From the sequence record OR992643: a DNA stretch of 24,264 nucleotides; one strand, written 5' to 3'. Of this stretch, positions 19,691 through 24,264 are shown in pieces. A program made the position numbers and the translations under genes. The stretch's first letter is position 1. Each line of letters begins with the position of its first letter. The DNA comes from Escherichia phage EP-M-A. A model generated the notes under the pieces. The model ran no database searches. It was not told the DNA's origin and saw only the letters and a program-made list of their open reading frames with translations.

Positions 19691-21963
19691 TATTTAAACC
19701 CCGGCGCATTTCTTGTGGCCTTGCGGGCCTTGCTAATCTTACTGTTGCTGTTCTGCAAAGAGGCTGCCACTTGCTCCTCGATGATGATACGCAAACGGCC
19801 TTCATCATCTTGCTCGGTGGATACGTTGCCGATTTGAGAACTCGTGTTGTTTACGATGGTAACATTAGCCGGGCCGGAAGAAGACCCGTTTTGGCCCATA
19901 ATCTCTTTCATTTGCTGCGCGGTGCGCACACGCGATGCACCCGCGGGCATGATAACTTCCGGTTTACCGCGTTCGGCGATGGTGGAAGCCTGCCCTGCTG
20001 ATAGCTGCCCGCCCTGTTCACGCGCGGACCTGATAGCGGAAACCTGCGCCATACCCGCCCCAACGGCAGCGGCAGCGGCTACGGGAGCCAGGAACGGGCC
20101 GACTACAGGGATGGCAGCTGTTGACTTATAAGCCTCAATAGCTGCGGTGTACGTGGCGATAGTGGCCTGTACGATAGCGAATGCCTTATACGCGCCAGAA
20201 GCCTCACCCAACGCCGAACCGATGTTTGAAGCCATGTTACCAAAAGCGGTTGCCGTTGCGTCTGCGCGCTTGGTTGCGTACCGCTCATTGATAGCGTTGA
20301 GTGCCGCCTGATACTGTTCCTCGTTAATCAGACCCTGTTCGCGGTATTTATCTGCGACCGCCAGTTTCTGCTGTTCCTGGATGTCGAGAAGCTCGAGTTC
20401 AGTGGCGTTCTGGCCCATAATCTGAGCCATGAAGTCGTCACCTTTCTGCTGTTTTTCTTGGGCTTCTTTCTGGCGCTTATCCAGTTCATCTTGTCGTTTT
20501 TGCCCTGCTTCTAGGACAATAGCCGTTTTTGCTTGCTCGTATTCTTTCAGTGACAGCGCGCCCTGGCTGTAGAACTCTTTTGCCTTAGCCAGTTTCTGCT
20601 GTTCCTGGGCGTCAATAGCCTTTAACTCGTCGTTGTTCTGACGGGCCAAAGTGTCGAGGTAATCCTGGGCCTGTTTGCGCAATTGCTCTGCTTTCTTGGC
20701 GGCGGCTTTTGCTGCTTTATCGTCGGTTTCCCCCGTTCCACCAGTTCCGCCCTTTTTATTAACAAGGCTGGCTAAGTCAATTTCTTGCTTCTTGCGCTCG
20801 TCATACTGCTTGCGCTGTTCCTCAATTTCTTTCTTACGCTGCTTAGACCTGTTGGTAATGGCCTGTGATTCTGCCTCTGCTCGTTTTATGCTGGCGGCGT
20901 ATGCGGCGTCGGCTTCTGCGGTCAGGTTTTTAAATGTTAGCGCTGCCGTTTTGCTCGGGTCAAACACGTCGGCAAGGGTCTGGCCTAACGCTACGGCATA
21001 ATCGTCAATGCGCTGGAACCACGCGATAACCTCGTGGAATGTCTGCTGAATGTCGGGCAACCACTCACGGATAGCGTCCGGTATACCCCCCAGCGAGTCG
21101 GACATATCCACGGATTTGTCCTCGGTATCGTATGCCAGGTCGTTCAAGGCATCAGAGATAAACTTGAACGATTCATTGAACAGTGTTACCCAATCCTGGA
21201 GCGTGGCTGCTATCTCATTAGACGCGATGGCATCAGTAAGCGCCGTGATAGCATCTTCCGCCCTCGCAGCTTGCCCACCTACGGCGTCGCCGAAACCTGA
21301 TTGCGCCACCGCAAGTACAAGGCCGTCAAAGGAGTCCGCGAGGCTGGATAACTGCCCGTCAAGGGTTTTCGAACGCGTTTCCATCGCTCCGGCGAAATCA
21401 GTGTTACCAATATTCAGAAGGTATTTCTGAATCTCTTCGGAGTTCTTCTTAACCGTGGTGGTAACACCGCGGAACGTGAACGACACTGTATCCGCCTGCT
21501 GTGACGACTTGATACCAAACTCTTTCAGTCGCTCAAACTCAAATGTACTGGCGTCCGCCACAGCCTCAATCATCTGATTAAGGTCTTTGCCCATCGCAGC
21601 GGCGGTGTTGCCGTAGGAGATTAACGCCTCTTTGCTGGGGTTAAGACCAAGAGCTACAAGTTTAGTGAAGCCCTCGACCGCCTGATTGAGGCCATACGGG
21701 GTTTCTTTTGCGAACTGTTGCAGGACGCTGAAAGCCTTAGCCGCGTTCTCAGCACTCCCGGTCATTGTGATTAGGCCGGAGTTCAGCTTATCGAAGTTTC
21801 GCTGGGAGTCCACCAGCGCACTGAACACCTGCTTAGCGGTTTCCAGGCTGACAACGGCGGCAGCCGCAGCGCCTGCGGCTTTAGTAAGCCCGTTCAGTTG
21901 TGATGTGACTTTATCGACGCCGGTTGCGGATACTCGTACTATCAAGCTAGCGATATCAGCCAT
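19690..21963 (-). CDS. tail tape measure protein, about 757 aa
   Basis: Long Ala/Gln/Lys-rich alpha-helical protein with coiled-coil character (QQKLA repeated), between GT and M-like genes; start set at ATG 21963 (AAGGTAG upstream), not the TTG at 21978. Confidence 0.85.
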   Translation of the reverse strand: MADIASLIVRVSATGVDKVTSQLNGLTKAAGAAAAAVVSLETAKQVFSALVDSQRNFDKLNSGLITMTGSAENAAKAFSVLQQFAKETPYGLNQAVEGFTKLVALGLNPSKEALISYGNTAAAMGKDLNQMIEAVADASTFEFERLKEFGIKSSQQADTVSFTFRGVTTTVKKNSEEIQKYLLNIGNTDFAGAMETRSKTLDGQLSSLADSFDGLVLAVAQSGFGDAVGGQAARAEDAITALTDAIASNEIAATLQDWVTLFNESFKFISDALNDLAYDTEDKSVDMSDSLGGIPDAIREWLPDIQQTFHEVIAWFQRIDDYAVALGQTLADVFDPSKTAALTFKNLTAEADAAYAASIKRAEAESQAITNRSKQRKKEIEEQRKQYDERKKQEIDLASLVNKKGGTGGTGETDDKAAKAAAKKAEQLRKQAQDYLDTLARQNNDELKAIDAQEQQKLAKAKEFYSQGALSLKEYEQAKTAIVLEAGQKRQDELDKRQKEAQEKQQKGDDFMAQIMGQNATELELLDIQEQQKLAVADKYREQGLINEEQYQAALNAINERYATKRADATATAFGNMASNIGSALGEASGAYKAFAIVQATIATYTAAIEAYKSTAAIPVVGPFLAPVAAAAAVGAGMAQVSAIRSAREQGGQLSAGQASTIAERGKPEVIMPAGASRVRTAQQMKEIMGQNGSSSGPANVTIVNNTSSQIGNVSTEQDDEGRLRIIIEEQVAASLQNSNSKISKARKATRNAPGFK

Positions 21964-22288
21964 GGTTTCTACCTTCAAAGATTGCTTCTAAGCCCATGAT
22001 AATGTCTATCTCGAACAGGCTAAGCTGTTTTTTCGTAACGTCGAGATAGGCTTTCAGGTCTTGCCACGTAACGGATTCTCTTGCAAACAATACTACAGCG
22101 TCCTCGCGCACGTGTCGCGTAAACTTAATGTCGCAATACGTCTCAAAGGTGGATATAAAAAGGGGCGGACATTCCGGCCCACCCCGTCGCGCTGCACGTT
22201 TTTTCTTATCGATTACACCCATCGCGATAAGCGCCTGCTCGTGTCCGTCAGCTATAGAATCAAACTCTCTGATTTTATGCTTATCCAC
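21956..22288 (-). CDS. T segment of a putative G/GT tail assembly chaperone, reached by a programmed -1 frameshift
   Basis: This frame is open from 22345 (inside the G gene) to 21956, is the -1 frame relative to G, has no ATG of its own (GTG in the track), and ends just before the tape measure gene. Confidence 0.45.
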   Translation of the reverse strand: MDKHKIREFDSIADGHEQALIAMGVIDKKKRAARRGGPECPPLFISTFETYCDIKFTRHVREDAVVLFARESVTWQDLKAYLDVTKKQLSLFEIDIIMGLEAIFEGRNHG

Positions 22289-22320
22289 AAACTCGTAGGT
22301 GGCGAACCTGTACAGCGCGT

Positions 22321-22737
22321 CTACTTTTCCTGTAATGCTTTGCGCTCAGCGTTATGGAACGCGGCTACCTGTGTGCCTAATGCCTTGAACTGGTCGAGCA
22401 ACTTGTTAAACGCTTCCTTAGAGAAAGGCTCGTCAAAGCTCCAGCCGTTTACGACTTCTGCCGCAAGTTGCCGGTTGAGGTCTTCCGCCAGTTCGTTAAC
22501 CGCCAGGTTATATTCTGTATAGTCGCCGGAGGCTTTAGCGGTTTTTTCCAGTTCTTCGAAACGCGCCAGTCCGCGACGGTACGCGATAATGAAAGCACGC
22601 CCCGCTTTAACGGCAGCATCCGCATCCGGATTTACAACATTAAGCCATTCCCCTGAGTCTTCACCATTTGGCAGGAGAATCGGCATCTTCTTGCCTACCA
22701 GTGCTTTCTCTTCGAAATAAAAATCAGAAAGTTTCAT
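22321..22737 (-). CDS. tail assembly chaperone (lambda G-like), 138 aa
   Basis: Size and position immediately upstream of GT and tape measure; AAAGGA Shine-Dalgarno; putative slippery site G-GAA-AAG at the last two sense codons. Confidence 0.6.
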   Translation of the reverse strand: MKLSDFYFEEKALVGKKMPILLPNGEDSGEWLNVVNPDADAAVKAGRAFIIAYRRGLARFEELEKTAKASGDYTEYNLAVNELAEDLNRQLAAEVVNGWSFDEPFSKEAFNKLLDQFKALGTQVAAFHNAERKALQEK

Positions 22738-22857
22738 TCTTTAATCCTTTGGTTAAGAGGTTACAGGTTAAGGGAAATGCGCCAGACGGGAACCACCCGC
22801 TTTTCGTGTGCGACACTAGGCGCAAAATTATTCTATCACATTACTTGCGTACCCCAA

Positions 22858-22875
22858 TATAATAGGGTACTATTC
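22858..22875. promoter_or_regulatory. divergent control region: consensus -10 TATAAT (22858-22863) overlapping palindrome AATAG-ggta-CTATTC (22861-22875)
   Basis: Palindrome copy between the leftward tail operon and the rightward Imm gene; leader motif ACACCAACAAT as after the 11220 promoter. Orientation and -35 are ambiguous. Confidence 0.45.
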
Positions 22876-22903
22876 ACTTACACCAACAATGAAGGGGTTT
22901 AAA

Positions 22904-23095
22904 ATGTCCAGTTTACCAGTTTCCTTAATTCTGTTTGCACTGCTCGCTTATTTCGCGCCTTTCCTGGTTGCGTACTTCCGTAACCATAAAGCGAAGTTGG
23001 CGATATTCATGGCTAATCTGTTTCTTGGCTGGGTTCTGCTGCCGTGGGTATTTATTTTAATCTGGGCTTGCAACTCGAACGTGAAAGAGAAGTAG
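22904..23095 (+). CDS. small membrane protein resembling superinfection immunity (Imm-type) proteins, 63 aa
   Basis: Two hydrophobic segments and the pattern YFAPFLVAYFRNH...NLFLGWVLLPWVFILIWA; GAAGGGG Shine-Dalgarno 6 nt upstream of ATG 22904 (the track ORF starts at 22889). Family assignment is from memory. Confidence 0.55.
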   Translation: MSSLPVSLILFALLAYFAPFLVAYFRNHKAKLAIFMANLFLGWVLLPWVFILIWACNSNVKEK

Positions 23096-23133
23096 GCTAC
23101 TATAAGACAAATCCTAAACACGAGGAAGTAAGC

Positions 23134-24264
23134 ATGGCCCAGAAGAAAATAACCGACGAACAGTTACAGGAAGAATTGAACGCCGGGATGAAGAATATAG
23201 ATATCGCCCGTAAATACGGCATCTCAGACCGCGTTATTCGTATCCGTAAAGCGAAGCTGGCGAAAAAAGGCGTAGGCCACGGGCGTGACGTTAGCCATCT
23301 AGTACCAGACGGCTACAAGATTAAAGGAACGTCGTCACTGGTGGACGAGTTCGGCAACACTAAGTTGCAATGGGTTAAGACAGACACCGATGCCGAACGT
23401 CAGGTCGAGTTGATGAAAGCCGTAATCGAAGGAATGAAATCAGAGATTACGCCAGTCGCCCCTGTTAAAGCAGCACGCGCCAAACGCGACGACAAGCTAC
23501 TCAATCTTTACACGGTATCTGATTTTCATCTCGGTATGCTGGCCTGGGCCGACGAGAGCGGCGACGACTGGGACATGAAGATTGCGGAAGACCTGTTCTC
23601 CCGCTGGTTCGACGCGGCGTTTCAGAAAGCACCGGATGCAGGAACTGGAGTTATTAACCTGCTAGGCGACTTCGCGCACTTCGATAGCCTGGATGCCGTT
23701 ACGCCAACTAGTGGTCATGTCCTTGACGCTGACACGCGCTATCAGAAACTGGTCCGCTACATGATTCGTATGGTACGCCGTGTTGTAGATATGGCACTTG
23801 TTAAGCATAGAAATGTTCGTTTGCTTATAGTGCAAGGGAACCACGACGAAAGCGGAATGATTTGGCTGGCTGAGATGTTCAGTACGCTGTACGACAATGA
23901 GCCTCGTGTGTTCGTCGATACGTCGCCGGATGTGTACAAGATGGTACAACACGGCAAAACGACTCTGTTCTTTACACATGGCCATAAATGTCGGTTTGAG
24001 GTGGTCGAACCAATTATGATAGCTAAGTTCCGCAAAGCGTTTGGCGAAAGCGAGTACAGCTACGCCCACGTAGGCCACCTGCACCATCAGAAAATCGTAG
24101 AAAGCCGTAACATGATTGTCGAGCAGCACCGAACCCTGGCGGCGAAAGATGCATATGCTTCCCGCGGAGGGTGGATGTCGGGCCGTAGTGCAAATGTAAT
24201 TACTTATAGCGCCGAATATGGCGAGGTTGCACGTTTAACTATTTCACCGGAGATGCTGGGATGA
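23134..24264 (+). CDS. calcineurin-like metallophosphoesterase (SbcD/Mre11-type motifs) with an N-terminal HTH-like domain, 376 aa
   Basis: Motifs SDFHLG, LLGDFAHFD, VQGNHDE, THGH, HVGHLHH; N-terminal NIDIARKYGISDRVIRIRKAKL is HTH-like; GAGGAAG Shine-Dalgarno before ATG 23134; TGA stop at the window end. Confidence 0.7.
   Translation: MAQKKITDEQLQEELNAGMKNIDIARKYGISDRVIRIRKAKLAKKGVGHGRDVSHLVPDGYKIKGTSSLVDEFGNTKLQWVKTDTDAERQVELMKAVIEGMKSEITPVAPVKAARAKRDDKLLNLYTVSDFHLGMLAWADESGDDWDMKIAEDLFSRWFDAAFQKAPDAGTGVINLLGDFAHFDSLDAVTPTSGHVLDADTRYQKLVRYMIRMVRRVVDMALVKHRNVRLLIVQGNHDESGMIWLAEMFSTLYDNEPRVFVDTSPDVYKMVQHGKTTLFFTHGHKCRFEVVEPIMIAKFRKAFGESEYSYAHVGHLHHQKIVESRNMIVEQHRTLAAKDAYASRGGWMSGRSANVITYSAEYGEVARLTISPEMLG

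What the first reader, a model, noticed from the sequence alone, without database searches (positions are those of the whole stretch)
22904..24264. Imm-like membrane protein paired with an HTH-metallophosphoesterase
A 63-aa two-helix membrane protein resembling superinfection immunity proteins is followed by a protein that fuses an N-terminal HTH-like domain to a complete SbcD/Mre11-type phosphoesterase motif set. No SbcC-like partner is visible before the window ends. It could be a host DNA degradation or exclusion nuclease, or a DNA-end-processing enzyme targeted by its HTH domain.
Basis: partly seen in the sequence, partly recalled or inferred. Interest (0 to 1): 0.5.

Follow-up and report, generated by a model that had tools for sequence, protein, structure and literature searches.

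The report
Phage Imm gene plus HTH-phosphoesterase gene
Two ordinary accessory genes of a Kagunavirus coliphage sit here: a homologue of the T4 superinfection-immunity membrane protein, and a widespread but never tested phage enzyme (the family of phage T1 gene ST16) that joins a DNA-binding helix-turn-helix to a metallophosphoesterase, most likely a nuclease that works without an SbcC/Rad50 partner.

Summary
The window is 100% identical to Escherichia phage EP-B-K_E2 (Kagunavirus). Relatives about 92% identical already annotate this pair as "superinfection immunity protein" plus "DNA repair exonuclease / metallophosphoesterase".

- **Imm (22904-23095):** it passes Pfam Imm_superinfect and aligns directly with T4 Imm.
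- **Phosphoesterase (23134-24264):** it is a full-length member of phrog_704, found in about 4% of sequenced phage genomes. It has a three-helix HTH, a linker and a metallophosphoesterase (MPE) core with every metal ligand invariant.
- **Not SbcD/Mre11:** the predicted structure has no capping domain, and no SbcC/Rad50 gene appears in an annotated relative's genome or beside 91 family members. Sequence profiles do not reach SbcD or Mre11. The fold search puts PolD-DP1, Mre11 and SbcD only slightly ahead of LpxH.
- **Imm adjacency:** it is confined to Guernseyvirinae, so the "pair" is shared synteny, not a module.
- **Recurrent neighbour elsewhere:** a HAD phosphatase (same PHROG as T5 Dmp) plus a dNMP-kinase-like P-loop protein. 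This phage lacks both.

Best reading: an autonomous nuclease tethered to DNA, for host-DNA breakdown or end processing, by analogy with T5 A1. No experiment supports this. Both genes are under strong purifying selection. Low novelty, modest interest.

The parts
22835..22873 (+). Sigma-70-like promoter region for the cassette. Two overlapping candidates: ATCACA-17-TATAAT (22835-22863) and TTGCGT-17-TACTAT (22845-22873).
   Evidence: The consensus scan gave 10 of 12 matches (window coordinate = L002 coordinate + 14699). The intergenic region is conserved across Kagunavirus, and the TTGCxx-17-TAyTAT version also aligns in a Jerseyvirus-like locus. Not tested experimentally.
22892..22897 (+). Ribosome-binding site (AAGGGG) of the Imm gene
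   Evidence: Read directly from the sequence, 6 nt before the ATG at 22904. Conserved in relatives.
22904..23095 (+). Imm-family gene: 63 aa, two transmembrane helices, homologue of T4 Imm
   Evidence: Pfam PF14373 48.6 bits against a cut-off of 27.9. phrog_1039 E 1.4e-22. BLASTP against T4 Imm 28% identity, E 2e-10. Hydropathy and dN/dS 0.02-0.17.
23122..23126 (+). Ribosome-binding site (GAGGA) of the HTH-MPE gene
   Evidence: Read directly from the sequence, 7 nt before the ATG at 23134.
23134..24264 (+). HTH-metallophosphoesterase gene: 376 aa, phrog_704, the family of phage T1 ST16
   Evidence: phrog_704 full-length match, E 9.9e-167. T1 ST16 is in the same family. 2049 phage records hold a homologue. 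4740 representatives of 50%-identity clusters match. dN/dS 0.04-0.2.
23155..23265 (+). N-terminal three-helix HTH domain (residues 8-44)
   Evidence: AF2 helices at 8-16, 21-28 and 32-44, pLDDT 81-95. HTH Pfam models hit family members. GerE E 0.012 in this sequence.
23314..23445 (+). Beta-hairpin plus long helix (residues 61-104) between the HTH and the catalytic domain. It is part of the conserved core, kept even in members that lack the HTH.
   Evidence: AF2 model. G74, W80 and K82 are nearly invariant. The HTH-less Campylobacter phage homologue matches phrog_704 positions 78-389.
23488..24261 (+). Binuclear metallophosphoesterase catalytic domain (residues 119-376), with no capping domain

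Best explanation
The region carries two independent accessory genes of a virulent Kagunavirus. They are co-transcribed from their own sigma-70-type promoter, antisense to the tail operon that surrounds them and in the same direction as the replication genes.

**Gene 1** is a homologue of T4 Imm. It is a 63-aa protein with two transmembrane helices. By homology it sits in the inner membrane and keeps the DNA of superinfecting phages out of the infected cell (inferred, not shown).

**Gene 2** is a member of the large phrog_704 family (phage T1 ST16). It has a three-helix HTH, a flexible linker, a small hairpin/helix module and a binuclear metallophosphoesterase domain with all metal ligands intact.

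Most likely gene 2 is a metal-dependent DNA phosphodiesterase (a nuclease) that needs no SbcC/Rad50 ATPase, because its own HTH holds it on DNA. Its most probable role is breakdown of host DNA with nucleotide salvage, as for the T5 A1 phosphatase-fold protein. Trimming of DNA ends during phage replication or recombination is the close second.

Shown: gene reality, family membership, domain layout, intact active site, absence of SbcC. Inferred: DNA as substrate, nuclease activity, biological role.
For: Family and domain layout:
- The active site is intact and invariant across 57 relatives at 32-50% identity.
- The AF2 model is confident (pLDDT 91.8).
- N-terminal HTH modules recur across the family, sometimes two of them. 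This fits a DNA-bound enzyme better than a small-molecule one.

Genomic context:
- No SbcC/Rad50 gene exists in the genome of the close relative Bas74 or near 91 family members.
- The gene lies in or beside DNA-metabolism genes in other phages: helicase, VRR-NUC and Dam; exonuclease, endonuclease VII and DNA ligase; ligase and RusA.
- In five of the 26 MPE clusters a HAD phosphatase follows it, usually with a dNMP-kinase-like P-loop protein, which alone follows it in one further cluster. That HAD phosphatase shares phrog_415 with T5 Dmp, a 5'-deoxynucleotidase.

Precedents:
- T5 A1, a putative metallophosphatase with Mre11/DP1-like structural features, is necessary and sufficient for host DNA degradation (bioRxiv 10.64898/2026.04.02.716235).
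- A mycobacteriophage MPE disrupts host genomic DNA (PMC12287305).
Against: - No member of phrog_704 has been tested, as far as the searched literature shows.
- The structural lead of nuclease MPEs over LpxH, MJ0936, Rv0805 and YfcE is small.
- The family is not detectably related by sequence to T5 A1 (hhalign probability 16.8%; separate phrog_1745). Nor is it related to Bxb1 gp47 (12.7%; phrog_221). The functional analogy is therefore only an analogy.
- The phage already encodes another exonuclease, endonuclease VII and a Holliday-junction resolvase.
- Some family members lack the HTH.
- The only transcriptome of a relative places Imm in a late-peaking class, but its timing scheme is coarse.
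Confidence: 0.5

Rival explanations
1. The enzyme heals or repairs nucleic-acid ends. The MPE trims or deblocks damaged DNA or RNA ends (3'-phosphate, 2',3'-cyclic phosphate, adducts) together with a Pnkp-type 3'-phosphatase, a kinase and a ligase. This would resemble T4 Pnkp plus ligase, or the kinase/MPE-phosphatase/ligase layout of bacterial Pnkp.
For: - The HAD gene that follows the MPE in K1ind1, ECBP5 and Webervirus passes Pfam HAD_PNKP (57-72 bits against a cut-off of 27.6).
- In ECBP5 the run is exonuclease, endonuclease VII, MPE, HAD, P-loop protein, ATP-dependent DNA ligase.
- In Campylobacter phage PC14 the MPE lies directly after a DNA ligase gene.
Against: - The HAD and P-loop partners are found in only 5 to 6 of 26 MPE clusters and are absent from this phage.
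- The P-loop protein matches dNMP kinase (phrog_139), not a polynucleotide kinase.
- The HAD protein shares its PHROG with the 5'-nucleotidase T5 Dmp, which fits nucleotide salvage equally well.
- Bas74, a close relative of this phage, has no annotated ligase.
Confidence: 0.22
2. The enzyme is a small-molecule phosphodiesterase or phosphatase, for example one that destroys cyclic-nucleotide immune signals or alters nucleotide pools. The HTH would serve only to autoregulate the cassette.
Confidence: 0.1
3. Imm and the HTH-MPE form one exclusion module: Imm stops incoming DNA at the membrane and the MPE destroys it.
For: The two genes are adjacent and co-oriented, 38 nt apart and behind one promoter, throughout Kagunavirus and Jerseyvirus. 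T5 shows a superficially similar order: A2 (DNA-binding), T5.005 (65 aa, two transmembrane helices), A1 (MPE).
Against: - The adjacency is limited to one phage lineage, 2 of 26 MPE clusters, so it counts as a single evolutionary event.
- Some Kagunavirus loci lack a detectable Imm next to the MPE (L014, L017, L021, L023).
- The MPE occurs alone in about 2000 other phages.
- T5.005 is not an Imm-family protein.
- T4 Imm works without such a nuclease (established knowledge).
Confidence: 0.06
4. It is the SbcD half of an ordinary SbcCD/Mre11-Rad50 pair, with the partner lying beyond the window.
For: Mre11 and SbcD are among the three best structural neighbours. Motif II reads GDxxH.
Against: There is no SbcC/Rad50 gene downstream, in the whole genome of the close relative Bas74, or near 91 homologues. 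The model has no capping domain or Rad50-binding tail. No SbcD profile matches.
Confidence: 0.01

Closest known systems
T4 Imm (Pfam PF14373 Imm_superinfect; phrog_1039)
   Same: Same Pfam family and same PHROG. Direct alignment at 28% identity, pairwise E 2e-10. Both are small proteins with two hydrophobic helices, encoded by a virulent coliphage.
   Different: 63 aa against 83 aa in T4: it lacks about 15 N-terminal and a few C-terminal residues of T4 Imm. The genomic context differs. The exclusion function has not been tested for any Kagunavirus copy.
phrog_704 'DNA repair exonuclease' (phage T1 ST16; K1ind1 ORF19; annotated as calcineurin-like phosphoesterase, DNA polymerase II small subunit or wHTH protein)
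   Same: Full-length member, E 9.9e-167, with the same HTH plus MPE layout. T1 ST16 matches the same model end to end. Homologues occur in 2049 of 50,697 phage records.
   Different: Nothing of substance. The family name is a prediction; no tested member was found.
SbcD / Mre11 nucleases
   Different: There is no capping domain, no Rad50/SbcC-binding region and no SbcC/Rad50 gene. It has an N-terminal HTH instead. The sequence profile does not reach SbcD or Mre11 (E 0.2-0.9; no NCBIfam hit).
PolD small subunit DP1 (archaeal 3'-5' proofreading exonuclease)
   Different: 12% identity. The model shows no OB-fold domain of the kind DP1 has (the DP1 layout is established knowledge), and there is no PolD large subunit. 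The phage uses a family A polymerase.
Phage T5 A1 (pre-early putative metallophosphatase, host-DNA degradation)
   Same: It is a stand-alone phage MPE-fold protein, described as resembling DSB-repair and proofreading nucleases, and it works beside a separate DNA-binding protein, A2. T5 also encodes Dmp, which shares a PHROG with the HAD partner of this family.
   Different: It belongs to a different family: phrog_1745, 556 aa. hhalign probability is 16.8%, covering motif III only. It is not among the 50 best BFVD structural matches. A1 is also required for second-step DNA transfer, which Kagunavirus does not have.
Mycobacteriophage cluster A MPE (Bxb1 gp47, A10ZJ24 gp48)
   Same: It is a small phage MPE without an ATPase partner. 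It is reported to damage host genomic DNA and to be needed on some hosts (PMC12287305).
   Different: It falls in phrog_221, is 255 aa and has no HTH. hhalign probability is 12.7%.

Membership tests
Imm_superinfect (PF14373; T4 Imm) | Profile score above the curated cut-off | tested here: met
   48.6 bits against 27.9. T4 Imm itself scores 58.2 bits on the same model.
Imm_superinfect (PF14373; T4 Imm) | Direct sequence similarity to the characterised protein T4 Imm | tested here: met
   BLASTP 15/54 identical, pairwise E 2e-10. Same phrog_1039.
Imm_superinfect (PF14373; T4 Imm) | Small protein with two membrane-spanning helices | tested here: met
   The mean hydropathy of 15-residue windows is above 1.7 over residues 1-24 and 31-57, with a polar loop RNHKAK between them.
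Imm_superinfect (PF14373; T4 Imm) | Blocks DNA entry of superinfecting phage | not testable with these tools
   Needs exclusion assays.
Metallophosphoesterase superfamily | Motifs I-V with all metal ligands (DxH, GD, GNH, H, GHxH) | tested here: met
   D130, H132, G178, D179, N236, H237, H282, G314 and H317 are invariant, and H315 is present in at least 90% of 57 relatives.
Metallophosphoesterase superfamily | Pfam Metallophos or Metallophos_2 above the gathering score | tested here: not met
   25.7 bits against 27, and 20.0 against 21.5. This is a divergent branch, and some relatives do pass.
Metallophosphoesterase superfamily | Alpha/beta sandwich MPE fold | tested here: met
SbcD / Mre11 | Match to SbcD or Mre11 sequence models | tested here: not met
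   No NCBIfam hit. The family profile against PDB Mre11/SbcD chains gives E 0.22-0.9.
SbcD / Mre11 | Capping domain and Rad50/SbcC-binding C-terminal region | tested here: not met
   In the model the chain ends with the last strands of the MPE sandwich at residue 376. The extra 118 residues are N-terminal.
SbcD / Mre11 | Adjacent or genome-encoded SbcC/Rad50 ATPase | tested here: not met
   None downstream. None in the whole genome of Bas74, a relative 92.8% identical over this region. None among recurrent neighbours in 91 loci.
SbcD / Mre11 | Structural similarity clearly above other MPE classes | tested here: inconclusive
phrog_704 (phage T1 ST16 family) | End-to-end profile match | tested here: met
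   E 9.9e-167, residues 3-375 on model positions 1-389 of 390.
HTH DNA-binding domain | Three-helix bundle recognised by HTH profiles | tested here: met
   AF2 helices at 8-16, 21-28 and 32-44. In this sequence GerE reaches only E 0.012, but relatives hit Sigma70_r4_2 at 1.5e-9, GerE at 2.4e-8 and HTH_8 at 2.6e-7.
T5 A1 family (phrog_1745) | Detectable sequence relationship | tested here: not met
   No phrog_1745 hit. hhalign probability 16.8% over 29 columns.
Known anti-phage defence proteins (PADLOC) | Match to any PADLOC model | tested here: not met
   No hits for either protein.

The most novel reading that the evidence does not exclude
phrog_704 HTH-MPE proteins (T1 ST16, Kagunavirus ORF19, and relatives in about 4% of sequenced phages) could be a general class of host-chromosome DNases that need no Rad50. 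They would be the counterpart of T5 A1 in the T1, Kagunavirus, Webervirus and Dhillonvirus groups, with the DNA-binding partner fused on as an HTH. Where present, they would feed a Dmp-like nucleotidase and a dNMP kinase. Some of the HAD genes now annotated 'polynucleotide kinase' next to them would then be nucleotide-salvage enzymes.
Probability: 0.3. Interest if true: 0.5.

Novelty: already known. Interest (0 to 1): 0.22.

Why it matters
This window adds little. The sequence is already in GenBank, and close relatives carry the same two annotations.

The useful point is about annotation quality. A family present in roughly one in 25 sequenced phage genomes is labelled "DNA repair exonuclease", "DNA polymerase II small subunit" or "recombination endonuclease subunit" with no experiment behind any of these names. 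It is not an SbcCD/Mre11-Rad50 component.

If it proves to be an autonomous host-DNA nuclease like T5 A1, that would explain how many T1-like and Jersey-like therapeutic phages dismantle the host chromosome. It would also matter for their transduction risk and for phage engineering.

Tried and rejected
1. **Ordinary SbcCD pair.** Rejected: the identical phage record and an annotated relative have no SbcC.
2. **Solved relatives by sequence.** A single-sequence search found nothing, and the profile search gave no significant hit.
3. **Defence or anti-defence membership.** PADLOC gave nothing.
4. **Homology to T5 A1 and to Bxb1 gp47.** hhalign gave 16.8% and 12.7%, aligned around the motif III GNHD region (through motif V for gp47). 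They fall in different PHROGs. T5 A1 is not among the 50 best BFVD matches.
5. **T5.005 (two transmembrane helices, upstream of A1) as an Imm relative.** No Pfam Imm hit and a different PHROG. The weak BLASTP match covers 21 hydrophobic residues only.
6. **25-nt direct repeat inside both genes (22979-23003 and 23239-23263).** It encodes the shared peptide KAKLA. Synonymous sites drift independently in relatives, and one copy is missing in Jerseyvirus and Dhillonvirus. Chance, not an element.
7. **The 76-aa ORF downstream as a conserved partner.** It has no similarity to the small ORFs after the MPE in Dhillonvirus or XY1. It matches only the C-terminal parts of longer PHROG families.
8. **Structured RNAs.** Rfam found none in the window.
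9. **Searching viral contigs with the 57-sequence alignment.** This failed for lack of a conserved stretch. An 11-sequence alignment worked.
10. **Literature on function.** Searches for any tested member of the family, or for T1 host-DNA degradation, found nothing relevant. The Kagunavirus transcriptome paper gives only a coarse temporal class.
Full report
**Source of the window.** Region 22700-24264 is 100% identical to Escherichia phage EP-B-K_E2 (OR992644.1, Kagunavirus, Guernseyvirinae; an unannotated record). It is 91-93% identical to many annotated relatives, including K1G, K1ind1-3, phage P, Bas74, ST20 and RP180. In these the same two genes are labelled "superinfection immunity protein" and "DNA repair exonuclease", "calcineurin-like phosphoesterase" or "metallophosphoesterase". 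Window coordinate = L002 coordinate + 14699.

The small gene runs 22904-23095 (63 aa). An upstream ATG at 22889 is possible, but the AAGGGG ribosome-binding site sits 6 nt before 22904. Two hydrophobic stretches flank a short basic loop.

The large gene runs 23134-24264, and its stop codon is the last triplet of the window. The ORF listing start at GTG 23044 lies inside the Imm gene. The ATG at 23134 has GAGGA 7 nt upstream, and distant homologues align from residue 1-5.

Both genes evolve under strong purifying selection. Against five Imm and six MPE homologues, dN/dS is 0.02-0.17 for Imm and 0.04-0.2 for the MPE. The antisense ORFs inside the MPE gene are therefore not credible.

**The Imm gene.**
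- Pfam Imm_superinfect scores 48.6 bits against a cut-off of 27.9.
- phrog_1039 gives E 1.4e-22.
- T4 Imm hits the same Pfam model (58.2 bits) and the same PHROG.
- It aligns directly with the window protein at 28% identity over 54 residues, pairwise E 2e-10.

Family membership is met. The function (keeping superinfecting DNA out) is inferred from T4.

**The HTH-metallophosphoesterase (MPE): family and spread.**
- The best family match is phrog_704 "DNA repair exonuclease", end to end (E 9.9e-167). Phage T1 gene ST16 is a full-length member.
- Pfam Metallophos_2 and Metallophos fall just under their cut-offs.
- NCBIfam offers nothing relevant, and PADLOC nothing at all.
- The family is very large. 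tblastn finds it in 2049 of 50,697 phage records across Guernseyvirinae, Drexlerviridae, Dhillonvirus and an Autographiviridae phage, and in Vibrio, Rhodobacter, Campylobacter, Flavobacterium and cyanophage genomes.
- 4740 representatives of 50%-identity clusters match in the metagenome-scale library.

**The HTH-MPE: active site and fold.**
- In an alignment of 57 diverse members, the invariant positions are D130, H132, G178, D179, N236, H237, H282, G314 and H317. H315 is nearly invariant. This is the full set of binuclear metal ligands.
- HTH Pfam models of the sigma-70 region 4, LuxR and Fis types hit many members. Longer members carry one or two such modules. Campylobacter, Flavobacterium and cyanophage members lack the module.
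- AlphaFold2 with this alignment gave a confident model (pLDDT 91.8). It shows three helices at 8-44, a disordered linker at 45-60, a beta-hairpin and long helix at 61-104, and an MPE sandwich at 119-376. Nothing follows the sandwich, so there is no capping domain.

**The HTH-MPE: which MPE class.**
- Sequence searches against solved structures found nothing significant, even with the family profile.
- Foldseek ranks Mre11, Rv0805 and DP1 within one order of magnitude of each other.
- Against predicted viral structures, the matches are other phage MPEs with the same vague names.

The fold is therefore a divergent MPE whose nearest solved neighbours are nucleases, but only by a small margin. 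It is not a member of the SbcD/Mre11 family.

**Surroundings.** The cassette runs rightward. It sits between the tail assembly chaperones (22321-22737 and 21956-22288, minus strand; Pfam Phage_TAC_4 and Phage_TAC_18) and, beyond the window, the major tail gene.

- A sigma-70-like promoter lies at 22835-22873.
- A bidirectional terminator lies just before the tail gene.
- The cassette points the same way as the replication genes.
- After the MPE there is a variable slot. K1ind1 and many others have a HAD phosphatase (161 aa) and a P-loop protein (184 aa).
- Bas74 and this phage instead have a 76-aa ORF that matches only the C-terminal part of longer PHROG families.
- The complete annotated genome of Bas74 has no SbcC/Rad50-like gene.

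**Is the pairing meaningful?** I collected 91 loci: 80 from IMG/VR, the nine relatives' loci fetched from GenBank records, and two duplicate views of the identical record and of Bas74. I called ORFs, built small HMMs for the candidate partners and clustered the MPEs at 70% identity into 26 clusters.

| Neighbour | MPE clusters (of 26) |
|---|---|
| Imm adjacent | 2 (both Kagunavirus/Jerseyvirus; even there four loci lack it) |
| HAD phosphatase immediately downstream | 5 |
| dNMP-kinase-like P-loop protein immediately downstream | 5 |
| Endolysin within 3 kb | 10 |
| Large terminase within 3 kb, downstream | 7 (two families, 4 + 3) |
| VRR-NUC or HNH genes | 4-5 |
| Large ATPase resembling SbcC | 0 |

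- The HAD and P-loop genes occur together in four clusters: Kagunavirus (two), Webervirus, and ECBP5-like podoviruses, where a DNA ligase follows. One further cluster has the HAD alone and one the P-loop alone, so six clusters in all have at least one of the two genes.
- In T1 and tonijn the gene closes the block of helicase, VRR-NUC and Dam genes before the lysis genes.
- In Campylobacter phage PC14 it follows a DNA ligase.

The Imm/MPE adjacency is thus one lineage's synteny, not a recurring module.

**Clues to function.**
- The HAD partner passes Pfam HAD_PNKP. It also belongs to phrog_415, the same PHROG as T5 Dmp, the characterised 5'-deoxynucleotidase.
- The P-loop partner matches phrog_139 "dNMP kinase".
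- T5 offers the nearest functional precedent. A1 is a putative metallophosphatase said to share structural features with DSB-repair and polymerase-proofreading nucleases. It is necessary and sufficient for host DNA degradation, and it works alongside the DNA-binding protein A2 (bioRxiv 10.64898/2026.04.02.716235).
- The T5 gene order is A2, then T5.005 (two transmembrane helices), then A1, with dmp nearby.
- A mycobacteriophage MPE (A10ZJ24 gp48, the Bxb1 gp47 family) is reported to damage host genomic DNA (PMC12287305).
- Neither protein is detectably related to phrog_704 beyond the shared superfamily. These are analogies, not memberships.

**Conclusion on mechanism.** I commit to an autonomous, metal-dependent DNA nuclease held on DNA by its own HTH. 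About 0.5 of my confidence is that it is a DNA nuclease of phage DNA metabolism. Within that, host-DNA degradation with nucleotide salvage is somewhat more likely than end processing in replication or recombination.

| Rival | Confidence |
|---|---|
| Pnkp/ligase-style end-healing enzyme | 0.22 |
| Small-molecule phosphodiesterase with an autoregulatory HTH | 0.10 |
| Two-gene exclusion module with Imm | 0.06 |
| Ordinary SbcCD | 0.01 (refuted) |

**Novelty and score.** The sequence is already deposited, and relatives carry the same annotations. The family is catalogued in PHROGs. Hence "already known" and low interest (0.22).

What remains open, and is worth a bench test, is the real activity of a family found in about 4% of phage genomes and named only by guesswork.

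Noticed in passing
L003:6563-7045 (K1ind1), L010:4656-5240 (ECBP5), L011:4660-5145 (Webervirus); compare L092:124-858 (T5 dmp): The HAD gene that follows the MPE in several phages is annotated 'polynucleotide kinase'. It falls in phrog_415 together with T5 Dmp, a characterised 5'-deoxynucleotidase. Pfam calls it HAD_PNKP but gives no hit for Dmp. The 'Pnk' label may be wrong for part of this PHROG.
   Followed up: partly
L009:3501-5234 (phage vB_EcoS_XY1): A complete but divergent HTH-MPE (60% identity) is followed by a 187-aa chimeric ORF. Its last 130 residues are 95% identical to window MPE residues 247-376, behind an N-terminus that looks like an HNH/NUMOD-type domain (my reading of the translation; Pfam gives no hit). 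This looks like the relic of an allele replacement at this locus.
   Followed up: partly
window 21956-22737 (- strand) and the cassette 22835-24264 (+ strand): The rightward Imm/MPE cassette splits the leftward tail operon between the major tail gene and the tail assembly chaperones, normally one of the most conserved gene orders in siphoviruses. K1ind1 annotates the chaperone pair as a frameshift-joined product. How the chaperone and tape-measure genes are transcribed across the cassette was not examined.
   Followed up: no
L002:9566-9982 (just beyond the window end): This phage has 187 nt of apparently non-coding DNA, then a 76-aa ORF, where relatives carry the HAD and P-loop genes. The ORF matches only the C-terminal 70 or so positions of longer PHROG families, one of them labelled ATPase (phrog_2452 and phrog_17613). 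It may be a detached C-terminal domain.
   Followed up: partly
window 22979-23003 and 23239-23263: A 25-nt direct repeat (22 of 25 identical) lies in frame inside both genes and encodes R-x-x-KAKLA. Synonymous positions vary independently in relatives, and one copy is missing in Jerseyvirus and Dhillonvirus. Judged to be chance.
   Followed up: yes
L092:1706-4134 (phage T5 pre-early region): The T5 gene order is A2 (DNA-binding), T5.005 (65 aa, two transmembrane helices), A1 (MPE-fold). This mirrors the order here: Imm (two transmembrane helices), then HTH-MPE. T5.005 is not an Imm-family member, so the parallel is architectural only.
   Followed up: yes
window 22798-22834: A conserved GC-rich imperfect hairpin (TGTGCGACACTAGGCGCA) lies just upstream of the -35 region of the cassette promoter. 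It could be an operator or a terminator for the opposite strand. Not examined.
   Followed up: no
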